NCBI GenBank assembly: GCA_003251635.1
Contig: QKEW01000008.1
Coordinates: 110,860 to 174,859 of the forward strand
From: a bacterium
Lineage (GTDB): Bacteria; Patescibacteriota; Minisyncoccia; Moranbacterales; GWC2-37-73
DNA length: 64,000 nucleotides
Reading direction: 5' to 3'
Shown here: in pieces, positions 9,944 through 62,346 of the stretch
Layout of the letters: every line of letters starts with the position of its first letter
Position numbering within the stretch: position 1 is the stretch's first letter
Notes under the pieces: model-generated
What the model was told of the DNA's origin: nothing
What the model saw: the letters and a program-made list of their open reading frames with translations, nothing else
Databases searched by the model: none
Made by a program: the position numbers and the translations under genes

Positions 9944-9996
9944 GTAACTAAGCCTTAAAAAGTGAATTTTAAATTTTGTGAAAAAATCAGAGACAA

Positions 9997-36261: not shown

Positions 36262-36270
36262 TTTGTAATT

Positions 36271-36389
36271 AACCTCCCCTCGGTCCCCTCCGCATCCCCC
36301 TCCCTTTCAAGGAGAGGGTCTGGGTGAGGTAAATTCTTGGCAAAAAGAAAATCCCCCAACAGGCGAGGCTGTCGGGGGGATAGTTTTTG
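36271..36389 (+). repeat. Island-boundary repeat copy 1: short R1 (5' box + hairpin-2 + SD region) followed by R2 terminator hairpin
   Basis: AACCTCCCCTCGGTCCCCTCC...CCCTTTCAAGGAGAGGGTCTGGGTGAGGTAAA + TTCTTGGCAAAAAGAAAATCCCCCAACAGGCGAGGCTGTCGGGGGGATAG. Near-identical to 42033-42195 apart from the R1 middle. Confidence 0.75.
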
Positions 36390-36393
36390 GGAA

Positions 36394-36606
36394 TCACTTG
36401 TAGATATAGGGAAGAATTTTTTCCCCATATCCGCGTTTTATTTGCTCAAGGCGGATGGATTTCAGTCCGTCTTTGCCGATCCAGTAGAGCTTTTTCAATC
36501 CAGTGTCAGTCATTTCCAGAAGGTCTTCAATTTTCTCAAACCCAAGCCGTTTAAGAGCGTTGATGGTTCTGTTATTCAAATTTCCCCAGGCATCTTTTTC
36601 GTTCAT
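36394..36606 (-). CDS. Stand-alone RNA polymerase alpha-CTD-like helix-hairpin-helix protein (70 aa)
   Basis: NRTINALKRLGFEKIEDLLEMTDTGLKKLYWIGKDGLKSI resembles the RpoA C-terminal HhH domain. GGAGG SD 7 nt upstream. Confidence 0.5.
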   Translation of the reverse strand: MNEKDAWGNLNNRTINALKRLGFEKIEDLLEMTDTGLKKLYWIGKDGLKSIRLEQIKRGYGEKILPYIYK

Positions 36607-36642
36607 GACAACCTCCTCGAGCTAGCAGTGATTTCGGAATTA

Positions 36643-37413
36643 TCAAAGTTCAGTTATTTTTTTTGCATCTATGATTGTGAATTTTATTTCGCACTTAACA
36701 TTTAGATTGTTTTTGAAATAATCTTCAAGCTGTTTTTGCAAAATATTCTCAAGTTCAGTTTTTGAAATGAAGTGACTGCTTGGAATTTTTCCAAGTCTTT
36801 TTTGAATTATTTTATCAATCTTATTTTTCCATGGCTGAGAAGGATCATAGAACCATCTTTCTTTCATGAAATAGGATTTTAGAACCTGAGTTAGTGAATT
36901 TAACAAATTTGGAAGTTCCTCATCCAGAATGGATATGTGAAATTTATAGATGAGATTCCAATTTTTATTTATCAATTTATGATTAAAATTTTTGTCAATT
37001 TGAATTATTTTTTCATGATGGTATTTGAGAAAATAAATATTTTTTTCTGGCAAGTATGTTATTTTTTTGGAATTGTAGATAAAAACTCGGGCATTATGGT
37101 CAAAATTTGTCTTGATAAGGTCGATGGGAATTATTAGTAAGAACAAAAATAAAAATATCAAACAAGTCACTGTCCATTTATCCTTCTTTATTTTCACTTT
37201 TGGGAAAATGCGATCCATTACCAATAAAAAAAGCAAAACTGGCAAAAGAATCAAAATTGTCGTCAAAAAAATTGGCCACTGAGTTTCTATGGCTAATAAG
37301 GAGGAAATAAAATGACCTGTTTCTATAAATGTCTTTACGGGTATCAAAATCAGAGAGAAAAAAAATAGAAAAAACACTGCAATGGTACTAAAAATTGAAC
37401 GGATTATAGTCAT
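36643..37413 (-). CDS. Membrane protein, hypothetical (N-terminal TM helices)
   Basis: ORF with GGAGG SD. Leader about 35 nt conserved with that of 36394..36606. Confidence 0.45.
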   Translation of the reverse strand: MTIIRSIFSTIAVFFLFFFSLILIPVKTFIETGHFISSLLAIETQWPIFLTTILILLPVLLFLLVMDRIFPKVKIKKDKWTVTCLIFLFLFLLIIPIDLIKTNFDHNARVFIYNSKKITYLPEKNIYFLKYHHEKIIQIDKNFNHKLINKNWNLIYKFHISILDEELPNLLNSLTQVLKSYFMKERWFYDPSQPWKNKIDKIIQKRLGKIPSSHFISKTELENILQKQLEDYFKNNLNVKCEIKFTIIDAKKITEL

Positions 37414-37428
37414 GACAACCTCCCTTGG

Positions 37429-37836
37429 CTAGCAGTGATTTCGGAATTTTTCGTAGTGGGGATATTTTTCAAAGAAAATTTTCTTTTCTTTTTTGAACAC
37501 AAAATATCTTCCCAAAAATAAAAACAAAATTAACAAAATTGCTAACAAATTACATGTGGCAATAAAATTGATGCTGTATTTATTAAAAAGTAAAAAAATA
37601 AACAGTGTTCCTGCTGCTGCATAGTAATAAAACACTATTCGTGCAAATTTTTTTAACCGTTTTTCACTTCCTGCTTCACTCCAGTCTTTCCAAAATTTCT
37701 CGCGTTCTTTATTGCAAAATTTTCTGTCAATCAGTTCCATTTGTCCACATTCGGGACATTTTTCCCAGAGGGCGGTTCCGCAATGTCCGCAAAAATTCGG
37801 ACCGGCGGTTTCTTTTTGGCACTTTGAGCAAATCAT
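37429..37836 (-). CDS. Zinc-ribbon membrane protein (CxxC x4 N-terminal, two C-terminal TM helices)
   Basis: CSKC...CGHC...CPEC...C motif then hydrophobic helices; related leader/SD. Confidence 0.5.
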   Translation of the reverse strand: MICSKCQKETAGPNFCGHCGTALWEKCPECGQMELIDRKFCNKEREKFWKDWSEAGSEKRLKKFARIVFYYYAAAGTLFIFLLFNKYSINFIATCNLLAILLILFLFLGRYFVFKKEKKIFFEKYPHYEKFRNHC

Positions 37837-38191
37837 GGCAATCTCCCTTGGTTAGTCTAGCCATATTCTTTTTATTTTGATTAAAACCGTGGCGCAGATG
37901 GAAGAATAAACTAAAATGAGAATTCCTATTGCAATTATTGTTTGCCAGTCCCAATTAAATTCCAGGGACGTTTCAAAAATAGAAATGACAAAAAGAAAAT
38001 AACTTTCTTTGATTATGCTTAAACTTATGGCAATCAATAATCCTGGCAGCGCGAAGGTGGTGATTTTAATCCAGGGTTTTAATTCCTTAGTATCTTTAAT
38101 GAGGCATGATGGTATTTGCTAACAGCCAACATTATAAATAATAAAATAAAACCGGCAGTTGCAAGCAGGGTCGACATAGTAAAGCAAAAAA

Positions 38192-38467
38192 TTAACTCCA
38201 TGATTCTTCTCCTTTCAAATTTCTTTGATTAATTTTTTTATTCAGATAAACTGTTAGCCAAACAAAAAATACATCGATAGAAGTTCTGATTACTAGTGAA
38301 ATCGTTGGGTGTGATATTAGATAGGGTTGGATCAAAAAACTTATTTGCAAGCCATTGGTTATAAGGAAAATACTGAATAATATTCGCATATAACGCCTGC
38401 CTGGATCCCAAAAACTTCCCAGACCCAAAAAAGCAGTAACAGCCATGTTTAAAAGTAATTCTCCCAT
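38192..38467 (-). CDS. Small membrane protein, hypothetical
   Basis: ORF with three hydrophobic segments; weak. Confidence 0.3.
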   Translation of the reverse strand: MGELLLNMAVTAFLGLGSFWDPGRRYMRILFSIFLITNGLQISFLIQPYLISHPTISLVIRTSIDVFFVWLTVYLNKKINQRNLKGEESWS

Positions 38468-38668
38468 GTGACACCTCCCGTGGTTAAATTGTCAAAGAAA
38501 ATGTTTCTTGATCTACAAGGAAACAGGTAATTTTCCCTAAAAATTAACAAATTGTCAACGAAAAATTGTAAAATATGGTCTAAAATCAGCCAAAATAAGG
38601 AAAAATAATAAAATTTCATCAATAATATTGACAAAAATGGGGAATTGGAGTATGATGATTTTATAATT

Positions 38669-38773
38669 AACCTCCCCTCGGTCCCCTCCTTGAAAAGGAG
38701 GGGAAGTGACGTGAGTTGAAACTAAAACGCGATTACCCCCTCCTTTTCAATGAGAGAGTCTGGGTGAGGTAAA
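38669..38773 (+). repeat. R1 full-length repeat copy (5' box, hairpin CCCCTCC-TTGAAAA-GGAGGGG, middle, hairpin CCCCCTCC-TTTTCAA-TGAGAGAG, GGGTGAGGTAAA) immediately upstream of the TrmB gene start
   Basis: About 95% identical to 42033-42137; supplies the SD-like GGTGAGG 8 nt before the ATG at 38779. Confidence 0.75.
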
Positions 38774-38778
38774 AAAAT

Positions 38779-39534
38779 ATGGACCAAGATTTAATCAAAC
38801 TTTTGGAAAATTCCGGTTTTACTCAAAAAGAAGCGCAAGTTTATTTGGCGCTTTTAGAGCTTTCCGAAGGAACCGTCAGTCAAATCGCCAAAACAACCAA
38901 GCTTAAACGGCCGATCATCTACGTGGTTTTGGAAGGTTTGATAAAAAGAGGTTTTGCCAATGAGCTGCCGGAAAGAAAAGTCAATGTCTATCAACCAATC
39001 AATCCAACTGTGATTTTGGGACAACTCAAAATGTCGGCCAAAAACTTTGCCCAAATGCTGCCAATCCTGCAAACCTTGGGAAATGACAGAAAAAAGAAAC
39101 CCAAGATTAGGTTTTATGACAACAAGGAAGATATTTTGAAAATTTGGGACGGCGAGATGAACATTGCCCAGGAAGCTTTTTTCATTTCTTCCTATCAAAA
39201 AATCGAAGAACACTTTCCGGGAAAAATTGCCGAGTGGATTGACAAGGCTCAAAAAGGTTTGACGGGCAAAGGCTTTCGTCATTTGATAGCTGACGATCCT
39301 TTGGAACTCGAGTTGGCACCCAAATTTTTGAAGGTTGATCAAAATGTCAGGATCTTATCCGAGCTGCGCGGTTTGAAAATGGATTTTACGATCTATGACA
39401 ACAAATTGGCCATAACTTCTTTGGAAGAAAACCCCTTTATTGTAGTGATTGAGTCGCCGGAACTGGTCGCTTCCATGCAGATGATTTTTGAATTGGCTTG
39501 GGAGAAGGGGAAGCGCGTAGCGCGTAGTGCTTAA
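38779..39534 (+). CDS. TrmB-family transcriptional regulator
   Basis: N-terminal TrmB wHTH (SGFTQKEAQVYLALLELSEGTVSQIAKTTKLKRPIIYVVLEGL). Confidence 0.8.
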   Translation: MDQDLIKLLENSGFTQKEAQVYLALLELSEGTVSQIAKTTKLKRPIIYVVLEGLIKRGFANELPERKVNVYQPINPTVILGQLKMSAKNFAQMLPILQTLGNDRKKKPKIRFYDNKEDILKIWDGEMNIAQEAFFISSYQKIEEHFPGKIAEWIDKAQKGLTGKGFRHLIADDPLELELAPKFLKVDQNVRILSELRGLKMDFTIYDNKLAITSLEENPFIVVIESPELVASMQMIFELAWEKGKRVARSA

Positions 39535-39618
39535 CGTATAACGTATAACGTAGAACGTAAAACGTGGAACCTGTAACCTGAAGCGTGGAGCGCGAAACGT
39601 GAAATATTGAACGTGAAG
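39511..39618 (+). repeat. Degenerate heptanucleotide tandem repeat ([A/G/T]A[A/G]CGT[A/G] x about 15) spanning the stop codon and 3' flank of the TrmB gene
   Basis: 7-nt periodicity read directly: aagcgcg tagcgcg tagtgct taacgta taacgta taacgta gaacgta aaacgtg gaacctg taacctg aagcgtg gagcgcg aaacgtg ... Confidence 0.6.
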
Positions 39619-39629
39619 TTAAAAAGAAA

Positions 39630-39670
39630 ATCCCCCAACAGGCGAGGCTGTCGGGGGGATAGTATTTTTT
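39630..39670 (+). terminator. R2 repeat copy = intrinsic terminator (ATCCCCCAACA-GGCGAGGC-TGTCGGGGGGAT + T-run)
   Basis: 11-bp stem with one mismatch, 8-nt loop, followed by TAGTATTTTTT. Confidence 0.65.
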
Positions 39671-39998
39671 AGTTTTGACTTAGGAAGGCAAAAACCGTCT
39701 TCCCGCTGACTTCATTTTCAAGCCAGCCATTAACTGAGCAGTAATCAGTTGCATCAGTGTCAGCTATTGCACGCCTTAGCTTGTACTGGCCGTCAGCGCC
39801 GAGGCACGGATTGTCAGCCAGAACGCAGCTTTCAAATTGACTTTTTGAAAGTTGCTCGCGCATTTTTTCAAAGGAGACTATCCTTGCCGGCCAATAATTC
39901 CTTGCATAACCGGCAGCTAACACGGCTGCAATGCAAAACCACTCATCTTCTTTTCCGCCACACAACTCAGCGGCTGTCTCGAATATAATTTCTCTCAT
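39669..39998 (-). CDS. Hypothetical protein, locally GC-rich (109 aa, 7 Cys)
   Basis: ORF in a conspicuously GC-richer patch than the surrounding genome; no recognisable family. Confidence 0.4.
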   Translation of the reverse strand: MREIIFETAAELCGGKEDEWFCIAAVLAAGYARNYWPARIVSFEKMREQLSKSQFESCVLADNPCLGADGQYKLRRAIADTDATDYCSVNGWLENEVSGKTVFAFLSQN

Positions 39999-40073
39999 TT
40001 TAAACCCCTTTCTTTTTTATTGGCTAAGTTGTTGAAAACTTTTTTTCTGTTTTTTGAGTTATACTATTAGGAA

Positions 40074-40631
40074 TTACATTACAAGCTTTTTGCTAAGGAG
40101 TCTTTTGAGGATATCCCCCCAGTTTTTACCTTGAAAAGGAATGACACCATTCTGGCAATATCTGCATGTATTACCCTGGGCATCTACACCTGTTCCTTCG
40201 CAGTCGTAGCAATGGATTGGTTTTCTTTTAATATCTATTTTCTGCACTTTAGATGTAAAAAGAATTTTTGTATCATCAATATTAAATACATACTCATAAA
40301 AATCAGGAGGGTTGCATTGTAAGCAATATTCTGGAAAATTCCATGGATCTTCACGTATAACAGCTATGAACTTAACTTTCATTTTTATGCCAATAAGGGC
40401 GAGACGCCACCCCAATAAATCCCTGGCAGGATCAGGAAGCCCACCTTCATATGAAATTTCCCACCCAAAGCCGGGTTTGATATGCAGGTTTGTTAGCAGA
40501 ACTTCAAATCCTTTTTTGTATAAAGGATTCACTGCTTCAAAATATGAGGAGACTATCGAGACATTATGGCCTTTGAGTGTATCAAGGGCTGATTGTGTTT
40601 TTTCGGGATGTTCAACGATAAGAATTTTCAC
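40074..40631 (-). CDS. Hypothetical protein with C-terminal DnaJ-type CxxCxGxG zinc-finger-like motif
   Basis: CYDCEGTGVDAQGNTCRYCQNG near C-terminus; N-terminal MKILIVEHPEKT resembles a small alpha/beta domain. Confidence 0.4.
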   Translation of the reverse strand: MKILIVEHPEKTQSALDTLKGHNVSIVSSYFEAVNPLYKKGFEVLLTNLHIKPGFGWEISYEGGLPDPARDLLGWRLALIGIKMKVKFIAVIREDPWNFPEYCLQCNPPDFYEYVFNIDDTKILFTSKVQKIDIKRKPIHCYDCEGTGVDAQGNTCRYCQNGVIPFQGKNWGDILKRLLSKKLVM

Positions 40632-40770
40632 AGCGTCCTCCTTTAATATTTTTAAGTTACTGTGTTACCTGGGCAAATTCTCAGCGTAACAGGCGATTAT
40701 ACCTTATTTTTACCAATACGTCAATAATTATGTCAATATATTAAATATAATCAAAATAATACAGAAAATA

Positions 40771-41586
40771 TTGACTAAAACAAGCCAAATATGTTATAAT
40801 AAGAATGTTGTCAGAATTGATAACAAAATTATGAATTTACTCCAAAAAGACCTAAAATCAATTGGATTGAGCGAAAACGAAGCAGTGGCCTATTTGGCCT
40901 TGCTTGAGTTAGGTGAGGCTTCTGTCGGAGAAATCGCTAAAAAAGCCGAGCTTAAAAGGCCAACGACTTATTTGATCATGGAATCTCTGAAGGAAAAGGC
41001 CTTGATAAGTATGGTAAAGCGAAAGAAAAAAACTTTATTTTTGGCTGAAGATCCCAGAAAAATCAATGAAATTTTGGAGGAGCGCAAACGAAAAATAGAT
41101 AAAATAATGCCACAACTTCTTTCAATTACTAATTCTCTGGAGGTTAAACCTAAGATTCAATATTTTGAAGGAGAAGAAGGGATTAAGAATGTTTATCGCG
41201 ATACTTTGAGATATCCAAATCAAGAAATGCTGGCCTTTTTTTCCGACTCGTATGCCAGGGGTTTTGAAGAGGATTTTTTTGAGAATTATTATTTTCAAAA
41301 AAGAGTTGAGAAAAAAATTTGGGTCCGAGCCATTTTGCCAAATCAAAAAATGACTAGAAGTTTAATGGTTCGCGACAGGGAGCATTTAAGGAAAACAAAA
41401 TTGGTCAGCAGTGAACTTTATCGGATTGAAGTGGAGGTTAATATATATGGAAAAAATCGAATTGGAATCATTTCTTTTGAAGAAAAATTTGCTTTGATCG
41501 TGGAAAGTCAAAAAATATCTCAGAGCTTGAAAAGTATTTTTGAATTGCTTTGGAGTTTGTTGCCGGAACATAAGCATAACGCATAA
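40771..41586 (+). CDS. TrmB-family transcriptional regulator (paralog of 38779..39534)
   Basis: N-terminal TrmB wHTH (LSENEAVAYLALLELGEASVGEIAKKAELKRPTTYLIMESL). Gene 3' end runs into a heptamer-repeat tract (41574-41615). Confidence 0.8.
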   Translation: MTKTSQICYNKNVVRIDNKIMNLLQKDLKSIGLSENEAVAYLALLELGEASVGEIAKKAELKRPTTYLIMESLKEKALISMVKRKKKTLFLAEDPRKINEILEERKRKIDKIMPQLLSITNSLEVKPKIQYFEGEEGIKNVYRDTLRYPNQEMLAFFSDSYARGFEEDFFENYYFQKRVEKKIWVRAILPNQKMTRSLMVRDREHLRKTKLVSSELYRIEVEVNIYGKNRIGIISFEEKFALIVESQKISQSLKSIFELLWSLLPEHKHNA

Positions 41587-41621
41587 CGTGAAGCGTGGAG
41601 CGTGAAATGTGAAAAATATCT

Positions 41622-41663
41622 TCCCCCCCCCTCCTTTTCAAGGAGGGGGTCTGGGTGAGGTAA
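41622..41663 (+). repeat. Partial R1 repeat (hairpin-2 CCCCCCCTCC-TTTTCAA-GGAGGGGG + GGGTGAGGTAAA) supplying the SD for the DUF559 gene
   Basis: Matches 3' portion of R1; ATG of the next gene 8 nt downstream. Confidence 0.7.
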
Positions 41664-41667
41664 AAAA

Positions 41668-42021
41668 ATGCAAAAAATTCACAACAGAAAAGAAAAACTA
41701 GAAAGCAGAAAATTATTGCGTAAAAATGCGACACCGCAAGAGATAATTCTTTGGTCTCGATTAAAAAGTAAGCAACTTGGCTGCAAGTTCAGAAGACAAC
41801 ATTCAATCGGTAGATATATTGTCGATTTTTATTGCCCAGAACATAAATTGATTATTGAAATTGATGGATCCCAACACAAATCTGAAGAAGCTTGTAAATA
41901 CGACAAAGAAAGAACCGAATATTTAGAAAAATTAGGCTTACAGGTCATAAGGTTTTGGAACAATGAGATTAATAATAATTTAGAAGGAACTATCCTGAAG
42001 ATTTTGGGATATTTAAAATGA
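41668..42021 (+). CDS. DUF559 endonuclease-domain protein (Vsr/PD-(D/E)xK-like)
   Basis: Typical DUF559 sequence (ATPQEIILWSRLKSKQLGCKFRRQHSIGRYIVDFYCPEHKLIIEIDGSQH). Confidence 0.75.
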   Translation: MQKIHNRKEKLESRKLLRKNATPQEIILWSRLKSKQLGCKFRRQHSIGRYIVDFYCPEHKLIIEIDGSQHKSEEACKYDKERTEYLEKLGLQVIRFWNNEINNNLEGTILKILGYLK

Positions 42022-42032
42022 TCTTAATCCAT

Positions 42033-42195
42033 AACCTCCCCTCGGTCCCCTCCTTGAAAAGGAGGGGAAGCGATGTGAGTTGAAGCTAAAACGCGATTGC
42101 CCCCCCTCCTTTTCAAGGAGATGGTCTGGGTGAGGTAAATTCTTGGCAAAAAGAAAATCCCCCAACAGGCGAGGCTGTTGGGGGGGATTTTATTG
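42033..42195 (+). repeat. Island-boundary repeat copy 5: full R1 followed by R2 terminator hairpin
   Basis: Direct repeat of 38669-38773 (R1) and of 36334-36389 / 39620-39670 (R2). Same orientation as all other copies. Confidence 0.75.
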
Positions 42196-42532: not shown

Positions 42533-42789
42533 CTCGTTTTCTCCTTGCGCTACGACGTTTATGTTAAATTACTCTGCGAAAAAAACATGAATGTTAAAAC
42601 CTAACATGCGAAAAAGTGGTTGTCAATTTTGAATTTTTTCTTGAAAAGCTTGTTTTTGGATGTTACATTGTATTAAAGATATAAACCTTAAGAAAGGTTT
42701 CCAGCTGGAAGTCGAATATTTTAGGGCTCGTGATCTGACGACTTATAACCTAAAAGCTATTAGCTGCCAGTTAGAAACCTGCTAAAAAT

Positions 42790-44066: not shown

Positions 44067-44720
44067 ATGGAAAATATCAATCCGGTTTTGGCTTATTTGG
44101 TGGCTCGGGGTTTGCCTTTGGATACGGTAATCATGCTTTTCATGTTGCCGATCATTGTGACTTTGATCGCTTTTTTTCGTCAGGTAGTTGGAATTAAGGC
44201 TTTTGGAATTTATACTCCGGCTATTGTGACTTTTGCTTTTTTGACCATACCCAAGTTGCGCTACGGAGTGGTGGTTTTTGTAGCGGTTATTGTTGTGGGA
44301 ATGTTGATGCGCTATGCCTTGAAAAAGTTGAGACTGCTCTATTTGCCGCGGATGGCCATTACTTTGAGCGTGGTGGCATTTTCAATGTTGATACTTTTGG
44401 CCTTGGGCGGTTCTTTTCAGCGAACCGGTTTGGCTTCGGTCAAAATCTTTCCGATTTTGATCATGATCACTTTGGTGGAAAAATTTGTGGGAACGCAAAT
44501 TGAAAAAGGTAATCGAACAGCTTTGATTTTAGCCTTGGAGACTTTGGTAATTTCTATTATCGGATTTTATTTGGCTAGCTGGAATGGTTTAATTGAATTT
44601 ATCATCGCTTATCCCTGGGCGGTTTTATTTACCATTCCGATCAATGTCTTTTTGGGTAAGTGGGATGGTTTGCGTTTGTCGGAATATGTTCGCTTTCGCA
44701 ATGTCTTAAAGAATATGTAG
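44067..44720 (+). CDS. 7TM membrane protein of the type associated with ATP-grasp ligases (7TM_transglut-like, no transglutaminase domain)
   Basis: 217 aa, 6-7 TM helices. Family assignment from remembered family pattern and from immediate adjacency to ATP-grasp ligase genes. Confidence 0.45.
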   Translation: MENINPVLAYLVARGLPLDTVIMLFMLPIIVTLIAFFRQVVGIKAFGIYTPAIVTFAFLTIPKLRYGVVVFVAVIVVGMLMRYALKKLRLLYLPRMAITLSVVAFSMLILLALGGSFQRTGLASVKIFPILIMITLVEKFVGTQIEKGNRTALILALETLVISIIGFYLASWNGLIEFIIAYPWAVLFTIPINVFLGKWDGLRLSEYVRFRNVLKNM

Positions 44721-44761
44721 CTCGGGCCTTTGGGTTTTTCACTATTAGTCGGACTTAAACT

Positions 44762-46168
44762 ATGGAGGGAGTTTTGAAAATGTTAAAAAATGGTAGGAAA
44801 ATTCTGGGAATGAATGCTCGCAATATTGATTACGTTCGGCCTTTGAATTTGAAAAAATCCAAAAAATTGGCGGATGACAAGATTTATAGTAAAAAAGTTT
44901 TGCAAAAAGCCGGTCTGCCAGTGCCTGATCTGATTGCTAAAATTCGAACCATTGAAGAGTTGGAAAAATTTGATTGGAGCTCGCTGCCAAACAGCTTTGC
45001 TCTCAAGCCTAATCGTGGTTTTGGCGGGGAGGGTATCGTTGTGGTTTATGGCAAGAAAAAAAGTCGAGATGAATGGATCAAGGCCAATGGCGATATTTTG
45101 ACGGTGGATGATTTGAAAAATCACATTCGCAACATTATTGATGGAACTTATTCGCTTTCCAACACGCCAGACGTAGCTTTTTTTGAACAGCGCCTGACGT
45201 TGCTCAAACTTTTCAAGCCCTATTCTTTCAAAGGCATTCCGGATATTCGCGTGATTGTTTTCAACAAGGTTCCGGTCATGGCCATGCTCCGGCTGCCCAC
45301 TCAAGAATCTGGCGGTAAGGCCAATTTGCAGCAGGGCGCGATCGGAGTTGGAATTGATTTGGCAACTGGCACCACTACTACAGCCGTTTTAGGCAAGGGC
45401 CGCTATATTGAATATGTTCCCGGAAGTCGCTTGCTGCTTTCGGGTATTAAGATTCCTTATTGGCAAAGTATTTTGAAATTTTCAGTCCAAGCCCAAGAAG
45501 TTTCGGGCTTGGGATTTTTAGGTGCGGACATTGCGATTGATAAAGAGCGCGGGCCGGTTTTTTTGGAACTCAATGCACGGCCGGGGCTTTCCATTCAAAT
45601 TGCTAATCTGGGTGGCCTCAAAGAAAGACTGGAAAGAGTTAGGGGAATCAAAATCAAAACAGTTGAGCGCGGCATTCGAGTTGGTATGGATCTTTTTGGA
45701 GGTGAGATTGAAGAAGAATTGGAAGAAATTTCCGGCAAGAAGGTGATTGGTTCGATTGAGAAAATAAAGTTGATCGGCAAGGAAGGACAAGAAATTGAAG
45801 TCGAGGCTAAGATTGATACGGGGGCCATGTCGACTTCGATTGATGTTGAGTTGGCGAGGGAATTGGGATTTGGTGATTTAACTGAGTTTTTTGACAAGAT
45901 TGAATTGCCAACCGGGTTTGTCAGGGAAGAAGCTCAAAAAATTATGAAAGATTTGAAACAGAAACATCAACACCCGGATTTAATTGATATTGATATAATA
46001 TTTTCATCTAATGGTGTGTCGATTCGTCCAAAGGTTAAAATAGAATTTATAATGGATCAATTGAGAATAGCCGCTAATGTCAATATAACTCAAAGAGCGG
46101 ATTTGAAATTCCAAACCATTATAGGCAAGAGGAATCTGAGCCGGTTTTTGGTGGATGTCAATAAATAA
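44762..46168 (+). CDS. ATP-grasp ligase (alpha-L-glutamate-ligase-related / RimK-like) fused to C-terminal retropepsin-like RimB/DUF785 domain
   Basis: ATP-grasp motifs (ALKPNRGFGGEGIVV; DIRVIVFN...RLP...GGKANLQQGA; FLELNARPGL). C-terminal domain with aspartyl-protease DTGA motif (KIDTGAMSTSID) and IGKRNLSRFLVDVNK tail as in RimK-associated zinc-protease-annotated proteins. Confidence 0.7.
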   Translation: MEGVLKMLKNGRKILGMNARNIDYVRPLNLKKSKKLADDKIYSKKVLQKAGLPVPDLIAKIRTIEELEKFDWSSLPNSFALKPNRGFGGEGIVVVYGKKKSRDEWIKANGDILTVDDLKNHIRNIIDGTYSLSNTPDVAFFEQRLTLLKLFKPYSFKGIPDIRVIVFNKVPVMAMLRLPTQESGGKANLQQGAIGVGIDLATGTTTTAVLGKGRYIEYVPGSRLLLSGIKIPYWQSILKFSVQAQEVSGLGFLGADIAIDKERGPVFLELNARPGLSIQIANLGGLKERLERVRGIKIKTVERGIRVGMDLFGGEIEEELEEISGKKVIGSIEKIKLIGKEGQEIEVEAKIDTGAMSTSIDVELARELGFGDLTEFFDKIELPTGFVREEAQKIMKDLKQKHQHPDLIDIDIIFSSNGVSIRPKVKIEFIMDQLRIAANVNITQRADLKFQTIIGKRNLSRFLVDVNK

Positions 46169-47102
46169 AATAGGCATGAAAAAAAGAGTACTAATACTTT
46201 TCAACAAGAAAGATTCTGAAAAATCTATAGGATCCAAACAATATGAAGATCTTTATTTGTATGCATCTGAAAAAGGTATTGAATTTTGTCGGGCATCTAT
46301 TGATGACTATGATTTGAAGAATAATTTTTTTAGAGAAGTTCAATTTTTTGATGGGGCGAAGTGGTTTATTGAAAAAAATGTCAAGCCCGATTTGGTTTTG
46401 GACAAATCACCATATGAAATCGGCGAAGAAAGAAAAAAAATCAGAGAATATATTTCGGCTAAATACGTTTTTGTTAACGATTTGAAAATTAGCAGAGTAT
46501 TAAGTGACAAATGGGAAACCTATAAAGAATTCGAAAATTTTTCGCCCAAAACAATTTTGATAGAAAATGATCATGATTTTGAAAATATTAATTTATTAAA
46601 AACTGAAGAAATAGTCCTAAAACCTAGGAGTGGGTCTGGCGGCAAAGATGTTAAAATAATCAAAAAAATAGATTTTTCTGGGAATAAATTACAATTTCCA
46701 TTTATAGCGCAAGAAATGGTGAATGCGGAAAAAGGAATAGCGGGTTTGGTTGATGGCCCGCATGATTTGCGAATTATTTTTAAAAACAGTACTCCTTTCT
46801 ATGCTTTTCTGAGAATACCTCCAAAGGGTAAATTAATAGCTAATGTTTCAAAAGGCGGAAAAGTCAAAGTTGTTCCGATAAACAAAATTCCAGAAAATAT
46901 TTTGGATCAAGCACGATTCATATCAGAAAAAATGAGTGAATTTCAAAGCAAATTTTTTTCTATAGATTTTATTGTGGATAATGAACAAAAACCTTGGATG
47001 CTTGAAATGAATTCTCGTCCCGGACTTATTTTGGAAGACGAGGAGTTGGAATATAAAGAATATTTTTACGATAATCTTTTGGATTTTTTGCTAAGCATAT
47101 AA
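46155..47102 (+). CDS. ATP-grasp ligase, paralog A
   Basis: LKPRSGSGGKDV, DLRIIF...ANVSKGGK, WMLEMNSRPGL motifs; ends FFYDNLLDFL like the next gene. Confidence 0.6.
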   Translation: MSINKIGMKKRVLILFNKKDSEKSIGSKQYEDLYLYASEKGIEFCRASIDDYDLKNNFFREVQFFDGAKWFIEKNVKPDLVLDKSPYEIGEERKKIREYISAKYVFVNDLKISRVLSDKWETYKEFENFSPKTILIENDHDFENINLLKTEEIVLKPRSGSGGKDVKIIKKIDFSGNKLQFPFIAQEMVNAEKGIAGLVDGPHDLRIIFKNSTPFYAFLRIPPKGKLIANVSKGGKVKVVPINKIPENILDQARFISEKMSEFQSKFFSIDFIVDNEQKPWMLEMNSRPGLILEDEELEYKEYFYDNLLDFLLSI

Positions 47103-47107
47103 TATTT

Positions 47108-48070
47108 ATGAAAAAAATATTAGTTTTATTTAAAAAAAGTGATTGGAAAAAAGACTATATTCCTGATGAAAAATATAGATTTTCATACGAATATTTTTAT
47201 AATAAATGCGCCGAAAAAGGAATTGAAATATATAGAGCTTCTTTTGGTTGGTATGATTTCAGAAAAAAAATATTTAGACATGCTTGGAAGTTTAATATTG
47301 ACAATCAAAATTGGGAAAGAGTTGCTGATATTGTCCCGGATTTGATATTTGATAAGGTTAAGCATAATGCTGAATCTTATAGTAAGACTGAGTTGATAAA
47401 TTCTAAATATAAATTTTTTAATTCGTTAGAGTTTACGAAAATTATTGACAATAAAATTGTAACGTCAATGTTGTTTTCGGAGTGGTCAAAAAAATGCATC
47501 GTTATTAATAGCCAAGAGGAACTTAAAGCATCGCTAGAACAGATTCAGACTGAAATGGCTGTTCTAAAGCCTACAAACGAAAGTGGTGGCAACGGTGTTA
47601 TTATAGGGAAAAAAGAGGAAATATTGAATGTTGTTGGCAGAAACAAAAAAATGTTGAATAATTTTATATTACAAGAATTTATCGACTCGTCAGCTGGAAT
47701 ACCAGGCATAACAATCGGAATACATGATCTTAGGCTGGTTCTTATAAATAAAAAAATTGTTTATTCTTACATAAGAAAACCAGCGAAAGGAAGTTATTTA
47801 GCCAATCTTGCTCAGGGAGGAACTAAGGATATAATTGATATAAGAAAACTGCCAAGGTCCTTGGATGAGATAGTCAAAAGGGCCCATGATATTTTCTCAT
47901 CTTTTAAATCGAAGATTTATACGATAGATGTTATGTTTGATCAAAGCGAAAGGCCTTTTGTGATCGAATTGAATTCTATGCCTGGGGCGCATTTCGAGGC
48001 TGGTCAAGAGTCTGCCAGAAAATTTTTTTATGACAATCTCCTTGAAGTTTTTTTAGATGAATTAAATTGA
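47108..48070 (+). CDS. ATP-grasp ligase, paralog B (tandem duplicate of 46155..47102)
   Basis: LKPTNESGGNGV, DLRLVLIN...ANLAQGGT, FVIELNSMPGA motifs; ends FFYDNLLEVFL. Confidence 0.6.
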   Translation: MKKILVLFKKSDWKKDYIPDEKYRFSYEYFYNKCAEKGIEIYRASFGWYDFRKKIFRHAWKFNIDNQNWERVADIVPDLIFDKVKHNAESYSKTELINSKYKFFNSLEFTKIIDNKIVTSMLFSEWSKKCIVINSQEELKASLEQIQTEMAVLKPTNESGGNGVIIGKKEEILNVVGRNKKMLNNFILQEFIDSSAGIPGITIGIHDLRLVLINKKIVYSYIRKPAKGSYLANLAQGGTKDIIDIRKLPRSLDEIVKRAHDIFSSFKSKIYTIDVMFDQSERPFVIELNSMPGAHFEAGQESARKFFYDNLLEVFLDELN

Positions 48071-48268
48071 TGATTTGTTTACTTTGAGATTAGAAAATTT
48101 AAATCAATTTTTACATGGTAAACCCTAAGTTTTTTAATTAAACGACCAAGTAGGTTTTTCTAATGAAAGTTGGATGGTTATGAATTGATTGGCTGATTTA
48201 TAGATTCTATAAAATCTTTGGCCTAACTATAATTTGTTTAAAATTTCGGGAAAACTAAGTAATATTTT

Positions 48269-49177
48269 ATGGAGAATTTAAGTCAGCCAAAATTTTTGAT
48301 AATAGGAAGAGAAGATAATGAGAATGTGAAAGATTTGAAGTGGGAAATTCGGCGGCGGGGTTGTAGAGTTGCGTGTGCCCAAATGAAAAATTTGACAATG
48401 AAAATAGATAAGAGCGACGGTTTTTTTGAATTTGTTGATACTAAGAATATTTTAAAGGTAGCGGATATTTTTATTTTCAGAATGTATAAAGATAGTATTC
48501 TTGAGGCTAAAATGCTTGCTAAGTGGCTGCTTAGTCATGATAAAGTCGTTATTGATAAATTCTTATTTAGCAAAGTGGCTTCAACTAAGCAATTTGATGC
48601 AAATTTGTTAGTTATTAACAAAATTCCCCAAATTAAAACCGTGTATTCTTTGAATGAGCGTGGTTGGGCTGATGCGCTTTCATCCTTGCGTAGCCCAATA
48701 ATAGTTAAGCCAGATAATGGCTCAAAAGGCCAGGGAATAATAAAATTTGAATCTTGTGGCGAGGCTCTGGATTTTTTGAAAAAAAATGTAAATGGTTTTA
48801 TAGCACAAGAATATATTTCAATTAAAAGTGATATTCGAATTTTTGTGGTTGGCGGAAGTGTTTTAGGCGGGATTGAAAGGCGTGTTGTTGAAAATGACTT
48901 TCGTTCCAATGTTTCCTTGGGGGCTGATGTTATTCCGGTTGAAGTTACAAAAGAAATGAGAAAAATATCATTAATGGCAGTTTCTGCTTTAAAGCTCGAT
49001 ATTGCCGGGGTTGATCTTATAAAACACGAAAATAGATGGCATGTCCTAGAGGTTAATGCTGCTCCGCAATGGCAAGGATTTAAAAAAGCTACCGGAATCA
49101 ATCCAGCAGAGCAAATTGTGAATTTGGCAATGAAAAGGTACAAGAAAAAGAATAAAAAATTTTTTGGTTTATTTTGA
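48269..49177 (+). CDS. RimK/LysX-family ATP-grasp alpha-L-glutamate ligase-like protein
   Basis: IVKPDNGSKGQGI, DIRIFVVGGSVLGGIERR...FRSNVSLGA, GVDLIK...WHVLEVNAAPQWQGF match the RimK-family pattern. Confidence 0.7.
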   Translation: MENLSQPKFLIIGREDNENVKDLKWEIRRRGCRVACAQMKNLTMKIDKSDGFFEFVDTKNILKVADIFIFRMYKDSILEAKMLAKWLLSHDKVVIDKFLFSKVASTKQFDANLLVINKIPQIKTVYSLNERGWADALSSLRSPIIVKPDNGSKGQGIIKFESCGEALDFLKKNVNGFIAQEYISIKSDIRIFVVGGSVLGGIERRVVENDFRSNVSLGADVIPVEVTKEMRKISLMAVSALKLDIAGVDLIKHENRWHVLEVNAAPQWQGFKKATGINPAEQIVNLAMKRYKKKNKKFFGLF

Positions 49178-62256: not shown

Positions 62257-62346
62257 GGAGAGGTCGCATAGTGGTCGAGTGCACCGCCTTGGAAAGGCGG
62301 CATACTGTCAAAGGTATCGGGAGTTCGAATCTCCCCCTCTCCGCCA
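62257..62346 (+). tRNA. tRNA-Ser (anticodon GGA), 90 nt with long variable arm and encoded CCA
   Basis: GGAGAGG...CCTCTCC acceptor stem, D-arm GTCGCATAGTGGTCGAGTGCAC, anticodon stem-loop CCGCC-TTGGAAA-GGCGG, variable arm, T-arm GGGAGTTCGAATCTCCC, CCA. Confidence 0.85.

What the first reader, a model, noticed from the sequence alone, without database searches (positions are those of the whole stretch)
36266..42195. Six-kb accessory island bounded and punctuated by a family of direct repeats (R1 hairpin pair + R2 terminator)
There are five same-orientation copies of a composite repeat, at 36271-36389, 38669-38773, 39620-39670, 41622-41663 and 42033-42195. The outermost copies (R1+R2, about 120-165 bp) directly flank a block between the LTD gene and yebC. 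That block holds an alpha-CTD-like HhH protein, small membrane and zinc-ribbon proteins, two TrmB regulators, a GC-rich two-gene module and a DUF559 endonuclease. Long direct repeats at both ends, paralogous regulators and a patchy GC signal are the signature of a cassette or integrated element assembled or mobilised by repeat-mediated recombination.
Basis: seen in the sequence. Interest (0 to 1): 0.75.

Follow-up and report, generated by a model that had tools for sequence, protein, structure and literature searches.

The report
Triplex-hairpin repeats flanking a DUF559 nuclease
The repeats are real but do not bound a foreign island: they are a known triplex-forming hairpin repeat (BoxC/PIT type) plus ordinary terminators in a native gene neighbourhood, and the same hairpins flank a small DUF559 endonuclease gene across bacteria, a link I could not find reported.

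Summary
**Observation:** confirmed. All five sites exist and match nothing else in the 64 kb window.

**What the repeats are:**
- **R1:** an inverted pair of purine-motif intrastrand-triplex motifs (the BoxC/PIT/TM class). Each pair folds into a ~105-nt hairpin.
- **R2:** a bidirectional terminator-like hairpin, always between convergent genes. A similar hairpin follows the LTD gene in two relatives.

**Island reading:** weak. Three Moranbacteria (YebC 74-82% identical) keep ruvB-bPH-LTD-[small genes]-TrmB...TrmB-yebC-ruvC. GC is normal, and there is no integrase or flanking tRNA. Extra here are the DUF559 gene, its triplex motifs (TMs) and some small ORFs. Module order differs from the nearest relative.

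**New lead:** the window's DUF559 gene is bracketed by a B arm upstream and an A arm downstream.
- In 81 genome genes, a sense TM lies within 150 nt upstream of 52, against 18 of 828 control ORFs.
- In 77 metagenome genes the figures are 46/70 against 2/241.
- Orientation is fixed, and the third block mirrors its own purine arm.
- Two 87%-identical cassettes share homology exactly from TM to TM, in unrelated contexts.

The searchable literature does not link DUF559/YcjD to BoxC. A REP/RAYT-like relationship is plausible but unproven.

The parts
36262..36333 (+). R1 copy 1: an internally deleted triplex-motif (TM) doublet. It keeps the 5' part of the A arm (36270-36291), then GCAT, then the B arm (36294-36333). 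It lies directly after the LTD stop codon.
   Evidence: TM detector hits 36274-36318(-) and 36296-36329(+)
36342..36388 (.). R2 copy 1: bidirectional terminator-like hairpin (stem-loop 36353-36378, A-run before it and T-run after it). It lies between the convergent LTD(+) and alpha-CTD-like(-) genes.
   Evidence: a similar hairpin follows LTD in relatives L085 (4338-4368) and L088 (5216)
38628..38656 (+). Sigma-70-like promoter TTGACA-17-TATGAT of TrmB-1. R1 copy 2 begins about 11 nt downstream of it.
   Evidence: 11/12 match; homologous promoter in relative L085
38660..38778 (+). R1 copy 2: a full TM doublet. A arm 38668-38704, loop, then B arm 38734-38773 (its hairpin is partly decayed). It appears to make up the whole 5'UTR of TrmB-1. 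Its third block GGGTGAGGT (38762-38770) serves as the Shine-Dalgarno sequence 8 nt before ATG 38779.
39512..39620 (+). Heptamer (7-nt period) array starting at the TrmB-1 stop codon.
39621..39667 (.). R2 copy 2: bidirectional terminator-like hairpin (39632-39657) between convergent TrmB-1(+) and the 109-aa ORF(-).
41569..41617 (+). Heptamer array at the TrmB-2 stop codon, 88% identical over 34 nt to part of the first array.
   Evidence: (D5)
41623..41664 (+). Solo B arm, the left terminal triplex motif of the DUF559 cassette: CCCCCTCCTT/ttc/AAGGAGGGGG/tct/GGGTGAGGT. It supplies the Shine-Dalgarno sequence 7 nt before ATG 41668.
41668..42021 (+). DUF559 (YcjD-like, Vsr / PD-(D/E)XK fold) endonuclease gene, 117 aa. 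All family-invariant residues are present.
   Evidence: Pfam PF04480 E 1e-36; invariant columns; PDB 3HRL E 3e-21; AF2 pLDDT 87.8 and Foldseek hits to 3HRL, I-Bth0305I and Vsr
42024..42139 (+). R1 copy 3: a full TM doublet. The A arm (42032-42068) is the right terminal motif of the DUF559 cassette, a 34-nt inverted repeat 85% complementary to the upstream B arm. It is followed by the loop and a second B arm (42100-42139).
   Evidence: (I5, D6)
42148..42194 (.). R2 copy 3: bidirectional terminator-like hairpin (42159-42184) between convergent DUF559(+) and the 104-aa ORF(-).
38779..39534 (+). TrmB-1 regulator. Its orthologue (57% identical) sits next to yebC in relative L085.
40831..41586 (+). 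TrmB-2 regulator (likely start ATG 40831, promoter 40771-40800). Its orthologue (57% identical) sits next to yebC in relative L088.

Best explanation
Shown:

1. [quoted passage not shown] Each has a pyrimidine arm, a loop, a complementary purine arm, a short loop, and a third G-rich block that mirrors the purine arm. This is the repeat class known in E. coli as BoxC, PIT elements or TM_ECO. Here the motifs are paired in inverted orientation, so each pair folds into a ~105-nt hairpin.

2. They belong with the DUF559 (YcjD-like, Vsr-fold) endonuclease gene at 41668-42021. That gene has one motif upstream with the G block next to the ATG, and the mirror-image motif downstream. The same TM-ORF-TM architecture recurs around this gene family in many bacterial phyla.

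3. R2 is a separate thing: a bidirectional terminator-like hairpin in convergent gene gaps. A similar hairpin follows the LTD gene in two relatives.

4. The genes between LTD and yebC are a native but plastic TrmB-module neighbourhood of Moranbacteria, not an island.

Inferred:

- The DUF559 cassette entered between TrmB-2 and yebC. Gene-less TM doublets were then seeded within 6 kb, one carried together with R2 as an 84-nt unit.
- One doublet now forms the entire 5'UTR and ribosome-binding site of TrmB-1.
- The direct repeats at module borders give homology for duplication, deletion and order swaps.

Most speculative step (my estimate about 0.35): the DUF559 nuclease recognises or cuts the triplex/hairpin structure and so spreads or maintains these elements, as RAYT transposases do for REP/REPIN repeats.
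For: Triplex geometry in the window:
- B arm: 8 of 9 triads.
- Reverse complement of the A arm: 9 of 9 triads (CCCCTCCTT/ttc/AAGGAGGGG/accga/GGGGAGGTT), read directly from the sequence.
- A strict three-block detector finds motifs only at the R1 sites in the whole 64 kb.

Known class:
- BoxC/PIT/TM_ECO has 23 copies in MG1655, is always intergenic, and occurs five times as inverted pairs (PMC4666352).
- The E. coli orthologue of the window protein is ycjD, with a TM in its downstream spacer.

Association, genome set (81 DUF559 genes chosen by protein only, many phyla):
- A sense TM lies within 150 nt upstream in 52/81, against 18/828 control ORFs in the same loci (Fisher p 5e-48).
- An antisense TM lies downstream in 38/81, against 23/828 (p 9e-29).
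- The proximal upstream motif is sense in 46/56 (p 1e-6). The proximal downstream motif is antisense in 35/43 (p 4e-5).
- Median gaps are 24 nt to the ATG and 5 nt after the stop codon.

Association, replication set (77 metagenome genes):
- 46/70 against 2/241, and 37/74 against 3/241.

Third block:
- It mirrors the purine arm rather than repeating it (85 cases against 12, p 1e-12).
- It covaries with its own arm (0 of 500 permutations reach the observed score).

Cassette boundaries:
- L104 and L106 are 87% identical from exactly the first base of the upstream TM to just after the downstream TM. Their flanks are unrelated.
- Over that span the TMs have 2 mismatches in 86 nt, while the ORF is about 85% identical.
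- The window's A arm recurs almost unchanged after the stop codon of DUF559 genes that are only 57-66% identical in protein (L103, L104, L106).

Native block.

R2.

TrmB-1 promoter conserved, with R1 as the 5'UTR.

Nuclease fold and relatives, including homing endonuclease I-Bth0305I and Vsr.

Outside hints:
- DUF559 genes are 14-fold enriched among predicted inversion targets (PMC9881135).
- In a sample of 60 E. coli records, ycjD-positive ones have a median of 21 TM places against 4 in ycjD-negative ones.
- Named close YcjD homologues include Escherichia and Enterobacter but no Salmonella. This matches the reported presence and absence of TM_ECO.
Against: - No biochemical or genetic evidence links DUF559 to these motifs. 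The mobilisation step is analogy only.
- Copy number in the rest of this genome is unknown. The R1 pattern found nothing in the genome or metagenome collections, and the other 58 kb of the window has none.
- I looked at the R1 edges only in passing and noticed no target-site duplication.
- The gene-less doublets are A-loop-B whereas the cassette is B-ORF-A, so they are not simple ORF-deletion derivatives.
- About a quarter of DUF559 genes have no detectable TM.
- In 13 of 59 related pairs the gene sits in conserved synteny, so it is often a stable resident. 'Cassette-only' homology at 70-75% identity is weak evidence.
- E. coli O157:H7 lacks ycjD yet keeps about 15 TMs. The E. coli contrast is also phylogenetically confounded.
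- A DUF559 protein in Caulobacter behaves as a Vsr-like repair endonuclease tied to cytosine methylation, a different role (PMC12907096).
- Purine-motif triplexes have been shown in vitro only for the E. coli motif. In vivo footprinting there was inconclusive.
Confidence: 0.7

Rival explanations
1. One reading: the 5.9-kb block is an accessory cassette or integrated element delimited by long direct repeats, and was assembled or mobilised as a unit by repeat-mediated recombination.
For: - 84-nt, 96%-identical direct repeats lie at both ends.
- The small ORFs, DUF559 and the 104-aa ORF have no counterpart in three relatives.
- Module order is swapped relative to L085, and content varies between relatives.
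Against: - The backbone with LTD, DZR, both TrmB types and yebC/ruvC is syntenic in all three relatives.
- There is no integrase, transposase or tRNA.
- GC is normal.
- The left-end R2 has a similar hairpin at the same position after LTD in relatives.
- The TrmB paralogues are old.
Confidence: 0.08
2. The triplex motifs are cis-acting parts of DUF559 expression: 5' and 3' UTR hairpins that stabilise, insulate, terminate or translationally gate a potentially toxic nuclease. The other copies arise by local duplication or gene conversion. DUF559 itself is a Vsr-like repair enzyme with no role in spreading them.
For: - The motif's G block sits at Shine-Dalgarno distance in many loci, including both window genes.
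- The long hairpin buries that Shine-Dalgarno sequence.
- Caulobacter DUF559 VsrA is a damage-inducible Vsr-like endonuclease.
- Many DUF559 genes are syntenic residents.
Against: - The same motifs occur far from any DUF559 gene: 23 copies in MG1655 at unrelated genes, arrays in L070, L077 and L019, and the window copies at LTD and TrmB-1.
- Selection for the mirror (triplex-type) third block is not explained by RNA hairpins. According to PMC4666352, purine-motif triplexes cannot form in RNA.
- The distance to the ATG ranges from 5 to over 100 nt.
Confidence: 0.2
3. The association runs the other way. TM repeats are host or independent elements, and DUF559 is a selfish homing-type endonuclease gene that preferentially inserts into or next to them, so it ends up flanked by them.
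For: - Among solved structures, the closest functionally characterised match is the catalytic domain of homing endonuclease I-Bth0305I.
- Related phage genes are annotated as homing endonucleases.
- The commonest full architecture is doublet-gene-doublet.
- The cassette is found in unrelated contexts.
Against: - The TMs travel with the ORF. The homology of L104 and L106 includes both motifs, and the A-arm sequence is conserved with the gene across genomes.
- No uninterrupted 'empty' target with the expected arm order was identified.
- The gene is rare on phages and plasmids.
Confidence: 0.15
4. The inverted motifs flanking DUF559 are the arms of a programmed inversion switch that flips the nuclease gene on and off.
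For: - A 34-nt, 85%-complementary inverted repeat brackets the gene (I5).
- DUF559 genes are 14-fold enriched among predicted inversion targets.
Against: - There is no invertase or recombinase nearby.
- The arms themselves carry the ribosome-binding site on both sides, so inversion would change little.
- This does not explain the gene-less copies.
Confidence: 0.05

Closest known systems
BoxC / PIT (potential intrastrand triplex) elements / TM_ECO of E. coli and other bacteria (Holder et al. 2015, PMC4666352; Bergler 1992, Bachellier 1999 and Hoyne/Maher 2000 are cited from memory or via that paper)
   Same: - Three-block architecture: pyrimidine arm, complementary purine arm, mirrored G-rich third block.
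- G/C-rich and strictly intergenic.
- Occurs singly and as closely spaced inverted pairs.
- Small internal deletions that keep a hairpin, like the copy at 36270.
- Linked to local rearrangement.
   Different: - The arm sequence is CCCCTCCTT/AAGGAGGGG/GGGTGAGGT, not CCCTCNCCC/GGGNGAGGG/GGGNGAGGG.
- The second loop is 3-5 nt.
- The host is a CPR (Moranbacteria) genome of 38% GC.
- The published work found no associated gene and states that no mobility function was ever seen nearby. Here the motifs are the flanks of a DUF559 nuclease gene.
REP/REPIN repeats and their RAYT (REP-associated tyrosine transposase) genes
   Same: - Short palindromic intergenic repeats.
- Doublets that form long hairpins.
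- A usually single-copy, often syntenic gene flanked by the repeats in inverted orientation.
- Repeat sequence differs between lineages while the architecture is kept.
   Different: - The associated protein is a Vsr-like PD-(D/E)XK nuclease, not an HUH Y1 transposase.
- The repeats carry a third, triplex-compatible block.
- No evidence of mobilisation exists.
EDxHD/Vsr-like nucleases: homing endonuclease I-Bth0305I (3R3P), Vsr (1VSR), NGO0050 (3HRL), Caulobacter VsrA
   Same: - Same fold by sequence and by predicted structure.
- Conserved acidic and histidine residues.
   Different: - It is free-standing at 117 aa, with no intron or intein host and no adjacent methyltransferase.
- Its substrate is unknown.
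MITEs and other bacterial miniature repeats (Correia/NEMIS, ERIC, RUP)
   Same: - About 100-nt hairpin-forming intergenic elements.
- They can supply promoters, ribosome-binding sites or terminators to neighbouring genes.
   Different: - No target-site duplication was noticed.
- No parent IS with a DDE transposase.
- The terminal repeats are triplex motifs.
Integron gene cassettes with attC hairpins
   Same: - Same-orientation imperfect hairpins punctuate an array of genes.
   Different: - No integrase is present.
- The segments between repeats hold several genes on both strands, each with its own promoters.
- By eye, the arm ends do not resemble attC core sites.

Membership tests
BoxC / PIT / intrastrand triplex motif (class II, purine motif) | Three consecutive blocks on one strand: a pyrimidine arm, a complementary purine arm, and a third block antiparallel-matching the purine arm (G*G, A*A or T*A) | tested here: met
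   B arm has 8/9 triads and the reverse complement of the A arm has 9/9 (sequence). The strict detector hits all R1 sites except the decayed B arm at 38737, and nothing else in 64 kb.
BoxC / PIT / intrastrand triplex motif (class II, purine motif) | Match to the published TM_ECO pattern CCCTCNCCC-N3-6-GGGNGAGGG-N3-GGGNGAGGG | tested here: not met
   The window arms are CCCCTCCTT / AAGGAGGGG / GGGTGAGGT with second loops of 3-5 nt. They belong to the same class but not to the E. coli sequence family.
BoxC / PIT / intrastrand triplex motif (class II, purine motif) | Intergenic, multi-copy, often in closely spaced inverted pairs | tested here: met
   Seven arms lie at four intergenic sites, and three of those sites are inverted pairs. 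Genome-wide copy number is unknown.
BoxC / PIT / intrastrand triplex motif (class II, purine motif) | Actual triplex formation | not testable with these tools
   Supported only indirectly: across 150 informative arms the third block mirrors its own purine arm and covaries with it.
REP/REPIN-RAYT system | The associated gene is flanked by the repeat units in inverted orientation, and gene-less doublets form hairpins | tested here: met
   Window: I5. Family-wide. Doublet folds.
REP/REPIN-RAYT system | The associated protein is an HUH/Y1 (IS200/IS605-like) transposase | tested here: not met
   The protein is DUF559 with a Vsr-like PD-(D/E)XK fold.
REP/REPIN-RAYT system | Repeat abundance depends on presence of the cognate gene | tested here: inconclusive
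   E. coli: ycjD-positive median 21 places against 4 for ycjD-negative, but O157:H7 has 15 without ycjD and the sample is phylogenetically confounded. Genus-level hint.
Genomic island / integrated mobile element | Absent from related genomes at the same site | tested here: not met
   The backbone LTD-[small genes]-TrmB-DZR-TrmB-yebC is present in three relatives.
Genomic island / integrated mobile element | Integrase, recombinase or transposase, a tRNA or other attachment site, and deviant composition | tested here: not met
   There are no such Pfam hits among the ORFs of 34-44 kb. The only tRNA is at 62257. GC is 0.366 against 0.381.
Intrinsic (bidirectional) terminator, for R2 | G+C-rich stem-loop followed by a T-run on each strand, located between convergent genes | tested here: met
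   All three R2 copies score on the minus strand, and the 42158 copy also scores on the plus strand. The other two have weaker plus-strand tails. All three lie in convergent gaps. Termination itself is not testable here.
DUF559 / Vsr-like (EDxHD-related) endonuclease | Pfam PF04480 match above threshold and a Vsr-like fold | tested here: met
   E 1.2e-36 at 125 bits against a cutoff of 20.6. 3HRL E 3e-21. Foldseek matches 3HRL, 3R3P and 1VSR.
DUF559 / Vsr-like (EDxHD-related) endonuclease | Catalytic residues intact and nuclease activity | tested here: inconclusive
   D53, E64, D66 and H70 are invariant in 40 homologues. They were not mapped residue by residue onto the Vsr or I-Bth0305I active sites. 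Activity is not testable here.
Integron cassette array | IntI integrase and attC core sites | tested here: not met
   No integrase is present in 34-44 kb. No attC model was run. The arm ends were compared only by eye.

The most novel reading that the evidence does not exclude
YcjD-type DUF559 endonucleases are the long-missing partner of the BoxC/PIT/TM repeat class. TM-ORF-TM would be a compact (about 450-bp) autonomous or domesticated unit. Its Vsr-fold nuclease would recognise the triplex/hairpin ends and spread or maintain gene-less TM doublets. This would be a REPIN/RAYT-like system built on a different enzyme and a non-B-DNA terminus, present from CPR bacteria to E. coli.
Probability: 0.35. 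Interest if true: 0.85.

Novelty: new variant of a known kind. Interest (0 to 1): 0.65.

Why it matters
BoxC/PIT/TM elements are, to my recollection, known since the early 1990s. They occur in hundreds of genomes and are linked to local genome instability. Yet the main study states that no mobility or partner gene was ever found near them (PMC4666352). YcjD/DUF559 is a widespread nuclease family with essentially no assigned function.

A tight, orientation-specific and replicated physical association between the two makes both problems directly testable with E. coli genetics and simple biochemistry.

For the window itself the result is more modest:
- A supposed island turns out to be a native regulatory neighbourhood into which these elements have spread.
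- The spread has visible consequences. One doublet has apparently become the whole 5'UTR and ribosome-binding site of a TrmB regulator.
- Repeats at module borders coincide with a change of module order relative to the nearest relative.

Tried and rejected
- **Rfam:** no family matched in the window or in 12 classic loci. The weak miRNA/snoRNA-like hits only reflect the hairpin shape.
- **Degenerate R1 pattern in public collections:** zero hits in genome contigs and metagenome contigs. Genome-wide copy number and sister strains therefore could not be obtained. The window's own 178-kb contig was not retrievable, only Logan fragments.
- **Island reading:** rejected on synteny, composition, and the absence of integrase and tRNA.
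- **Integron-like cassette array:** considered because same-orientation hairpins punctuate genes. Rejected because there is no integrase and the segments are multi-gene, two-strand and carry their own promoters.
- **Defence-system reading:** PADLOC gives only weak domain-level hits for DUF559 and the TrmB HTH.
- **Phage or plasmid carriage of the cassette:** 6 weak phage hits. The 45 plasmid records are mostly megaplasmids or mislabelled chromosomes.
- **Low-copy E. coli test:** in low-TM strains the surviving TM is at zntA-tusA, not at ycjD. That simple prediction failed.
- **Repeats in relatives:** relatives' loci have their own unrelated short repeats but no TMs.
- **Literature:** searches for DUF559, ycjD, boxC and intrastrand triplex found no paper linking the gene and the repeat. 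Only open-access text was searched.

Full report
**Observation.** They contain two unrelated components.

R1 is built from:
- an A arm (TAACCTCCCCTCGGTCCCCTCCTTGAAAAGGAGGGGA);
- a loop of about 33 nt;
- a B arm (CCCCTCCTTTTCAAGGAGnnnGTCTGGGTGAGGTAAA) that resembles the reverse complement of A.

The R1 copies are:
- full copies at 38668-38773 and 42032-42139;
- an internally deleted copy at 36270-36333;
- a solo B arm at 41623-41664.

R2 is a 47-nt hairpin unit at 36342, 39621 and 42148. B plus R2 form an 84-nt, 96%-identical direct repeat at the two ends of the block. None of the motifs is expected by chance, and none occurs elsewhere in the 64 kb. The full R1 copies fold into very stable hairpins as RNA (z -6 and -8) and as DNA on either strand. 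An independent assembly of the same organism breaks its contigs inside R2 and inside the A arm.

**Is the block an island?** The organism is a member of the Candidate Phyla Radiation close to Moranbacteria. No sister strain was retrievable. The nearest relatives have YebC 82, 81 and 74% identical. All three keep the same backbone: ruvB, a 72-aa gene, bPH, LTD, small minus-strand genes, TrmB, further small genes (a DZR gene only in L085), TrmB (only one TrmB in L086), yebC, ruvC, a 7TM protein, then ATP-grasp genes.
- The block has normal GC (0.366 against 0.381).
- It has no integrase or transposase and no flanking tRNA.
- Each TrmB gene is half of a divergent promoter pair with minus-strand small genes.
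- The TrmB-1 promoter is recognisably the same as in relative L085.

So the neighbourhood is native. It is also plastic. The number of small genes differs between relatives. Three TrmB paralogue types occupy the slot next to yebC in different genomes, and the order of the two modules is swapped relative to L085. Relative to all three, the extras in the window are DUF559, the 104-aa ORF, several small ORFs and the R1 copies. The relatives have their own unrelated short repeats but no R1-type motif.

**R2.** R2 scores as an intrinsic terminator on the minus strand at all three sites, and on the plus strand at 42158. It always lies between convergent genes. A similar hairpin (CCCCGACAG...CTGTCGGGG) sits right after the LTD gene in relatives L085 and L088, and after a TrmB gene in L085. 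R2 is therefore an ordinary terminator. Its near-identity between copies (98%) contrasts with the old divergence of the TrmB paralogues. That points to recent copying or conversion, in two cases together with the adjacent B arm.

**What R1 is.** Each arm has three blocks: a pyrimidine run, a loop and the complementary purine run, then 3-5 nt and a G-rich block.
- Read antiparallel to the purine arm, the third block gives G*G, A*A or T*A at 8 of 9 positions in B.
- It gives 9 of 9 positions in the reverse complement of A (sequence).

This is the geometry of a class-II purine-motif intrastrand triplex. The E. coli orthologue of the window's DUF559 protein is ycjD. Its downstream spacer holds CCCCTCTGGGGAGAGGGTTAGGGTGAGGGG. 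A 49-nt probe around that motif hits a median of 19 places per genome in 5426 E. coli genomes.

The literature identifies this motif as BoxC, also called PIT element or TM_ECO (PMC4666352):
- 23 copies in MG1655, always intergenic;
- five times as closely spaced inverted pairs;
- forms a triplex in vitro;
- associated with rearrangement between strains.

R1 is thus an inverted pair of such motifs with lineage-specific arm sequences. It does not match the E. coli consensus itself. Rfam has no family for it.

**The link to DUF559.** In the window the DUF559 gene has a B arm ending 4 nt before its ATG and an A arm starting 10 nt after its stop codon. Together these form a 34-nt, 85%-complementary inverted repeat. 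Mis-called N- and C-terminal extensions of database homologues read through similar hairpins, so I tested this systematically.

In 81 DUF559 genes from genomes of many phyla, selected by protein only:
- A strict three-block detector finds a sense-strand motif within 150 nt upstream of 52, against 18 of 828 other ORFs in the same loci.
- It finds an antisense motif within 150 nt downstream of 38, against 23 of 828 (Fisher p 5e-48 and 9e-29).
- The motif nearest the start codon is sense in 46 of 56 cases. The one nearest the stop codon is antisense in 35 of 43.
- Median gaps are 24 and 5 nt.
- The commonest complete layout is doublet-gene-doublet.

An independent set of 77 metagenome genes gives 46/70 against 2/241 and 37/74 against 3/241.

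Using hairpins found without reference to a third block:
- The 3' flank matches the mirror of the purine arm better than a direct repeat in 85 cases against 12 (p 1e-12).
- It matches its own arm better than arms from other loci (0 of 500 permutations).

So the triplex-type geometry is itself conserved while the arm sequence changes between lineages.

**Is it a unit?** L104 and L106 carry cassettes 87% identical. The homology starts at the first base of the upstream motif and ends just after the downstream motif, and the flanks are unrelated. The motifs (2 mismatches in 86 nt) are better conserved than the ORF. The window's A arm recurs almost unchanged after DUF559 genes that share only 57-66% protein identity with it. 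Of 59 related pairs with enough flank, 46 share homology only within the cassette and 13 show extended synteny. At 70-75% identity the former is weak evidence, and the latter shows the gene is often a stable resident. The gene is rare on phages and plasmids.

**The protein.**
- It matches Pfam DUF559 (E 1e-36) and the structural-genomics entry 3HRL.
- All residues invariant in 40 homologues are present.
- A confident model (pLDDT 87.8) is closest to 3HRL, then to the catalytic domain of homing endonuclease I-Bth0305I, then to Vsr.

Published hints point in different directions:
- A Caulobacter DUF559 protein behaves as a Vsr-like repair endonuclease (PMC12907096).
- A DUF559-containing gene is assigned to the EDxHD homing-endonuclease family (PMC9403480).
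- DUF559 genes are 14-fold enriched among predicted inversion targets (PMC9881135). That is what inverted flanking repeats would produce.

**Co-occurrence tests.**
- ycjD is present in 3378 of 5426 E. coli genomes. Elsewhere eefRABCD occupies the site (PMC12817139).
- With a composite query, 37 sampled ycjD-positive records have 13-30 places (median 21).
- The 22 complete ycjD-negative records have 2-20 (median 4).
- B2 strains have 2-4, but O157:H7 has 15.
- In two low-copy strains the surviving motif is at zntA-tusA.

This is suggestive but phylogenetically confounded, and it is not a strict dependence. At genus level, named close YcjD homologues include Escherichia, Shigella and Enterobacter but no Salmonella. 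That matches the reported abundance in Escherichia and Enterobacter and the absence of TM_ECO from Salmonella. The absence from a top-120 list is not proof.

**Most likely account of the window.**

Shown:
- R1 is a set of triplex-motif doublets tied to a DUF559 cassette.
- R2 is a terminator.
- The block is native.

Inferred:
- The cassette entered between TrmB-2 and yebC.
- Gene-less doublets were seeded nearby, one with R2 attached.
- One doublet replaced the 5'UTR of TrmB-1. The transcript should then begin with a -49 kcal/mol hairpin whose base pairs bury the Shine-Dalgarno sequence supplied by the motif's G block.
- The repeats at module borders provide homology for duplication, deletion and order change.

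Speculative (about 0.35): the nuclease acts on the motifs and spreads or maintains them, as RAYTs do for REPINs. Against this:
- the doublets are A-loop-B while the cassette is B-ORF-A;
- I noticed no target-site duplication, though I did not test for one systematically;
- there is no experimental link.

**Novelty.** The repeat class is known, and the window copies are a CPR version of it. I could not find the systematic DUF559-TM association in the searchable literature. The principal paper explicitly reports finding no associated mobility function. Only open-access text was searched, so prior description elsewhere cannot be excluded.

Noticed in passing
window 39512-39620 and 41569-41617; L088 9914-9937; L086 9016-9050: Arrays of 7-nt-period repeats (TAACGTA, AACGTGA and CATAACG types) begin at the stop codons of both TrmB genes. 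Similar A/C-rich heptamers lie between TrmB and yebC in relatives. Their function is unknown; they could be operator arrays or slippage-prone tracts.
   Followed up: partly
L083 (E. coli K-12 NC_000913.3 1351190-1351410), minus strand: Downstream of ycjD lies a truncated second copy of the ycjD 3' end, followed by a decayed triplex motif and then an intact one. The ycjD ORF itself ends inside a decayed hairpin. This looks like the footprint of an earlier cassette copy or a partial duplication.
   Followed up: no
L070 4100-9720; L077 5800-8130; L019 6350-7000: Long arrays (up to 26 hairpins in about 5.5 kb) of alternating triplex-type motifs sit next to DUF559 genes in Clostridia, Anaerolineae and Crenothrix MAGs. 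These arrays are read as long spurious ORFs.
   Followed up: no
L008 1583-1942 and 6001-6354; L013 1555-1902 and 5971-6366: Two CPR genomes each carry two DUF559 cassettes about 4.4 kb apart, each with its own flanking motifs.
   Followed up: no
window 36394-41586 compared with L085 4465-9905, L086 7152-8908 and L088 5256-9846: The LTD-yebC interval in Moranbacteria is a variable set of modules, each a TrmB regulator with divergently transcribed small membrane or zinc-ribbon proteins. Three TrmB paralogue types occupy the yebC-proximal slot in different genomes. The small proteins have no detectable homologues between relatives.
   Followed up: partly
window 38605-38656 and 40696-40800: Strong back-to-back sigma-70-like promoter pairs (10-11 of 12 consensus positions) lie between each TrmB gene and its minus-strand neighbours. 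The listed TTG start of TrmB-2 (40771) is actually the -35 box; the likely start is ATG 40831.
   Followed up: partly
window 42641-42669; L085 about 9930-9965; L086 about 8912-8945; L088 about 9868-9900: The yebC promoter (TTGAAA-17-TAnnnT) is conserved in the window and all three relatives, even though about 1.1 kb (the DUF559 cassette, R2 and the 104-aa ORF) has been inserted upstream of it in the window.
   Followed up: partly
window 44067-49177; L084-L088 downstream of ruvC: A conserved cluster holds a 7TM protein (the family usually fused to an inactive transglutaminase) followed by three or four ATP-grasp (RimK/ATPgrasp_ST) genes. It lies between ruvC and a PBP1-type transglycosylase/transpeptidase, then ruvA.
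   Followed up: no
(structure search with the window DUF559 model): The DUF559 fold also matches several large-subunit proteins of apicomplexan and ciliate mitochondrial ribosomes (9i05, 9g6k, 6z1p).
   Followed up: no
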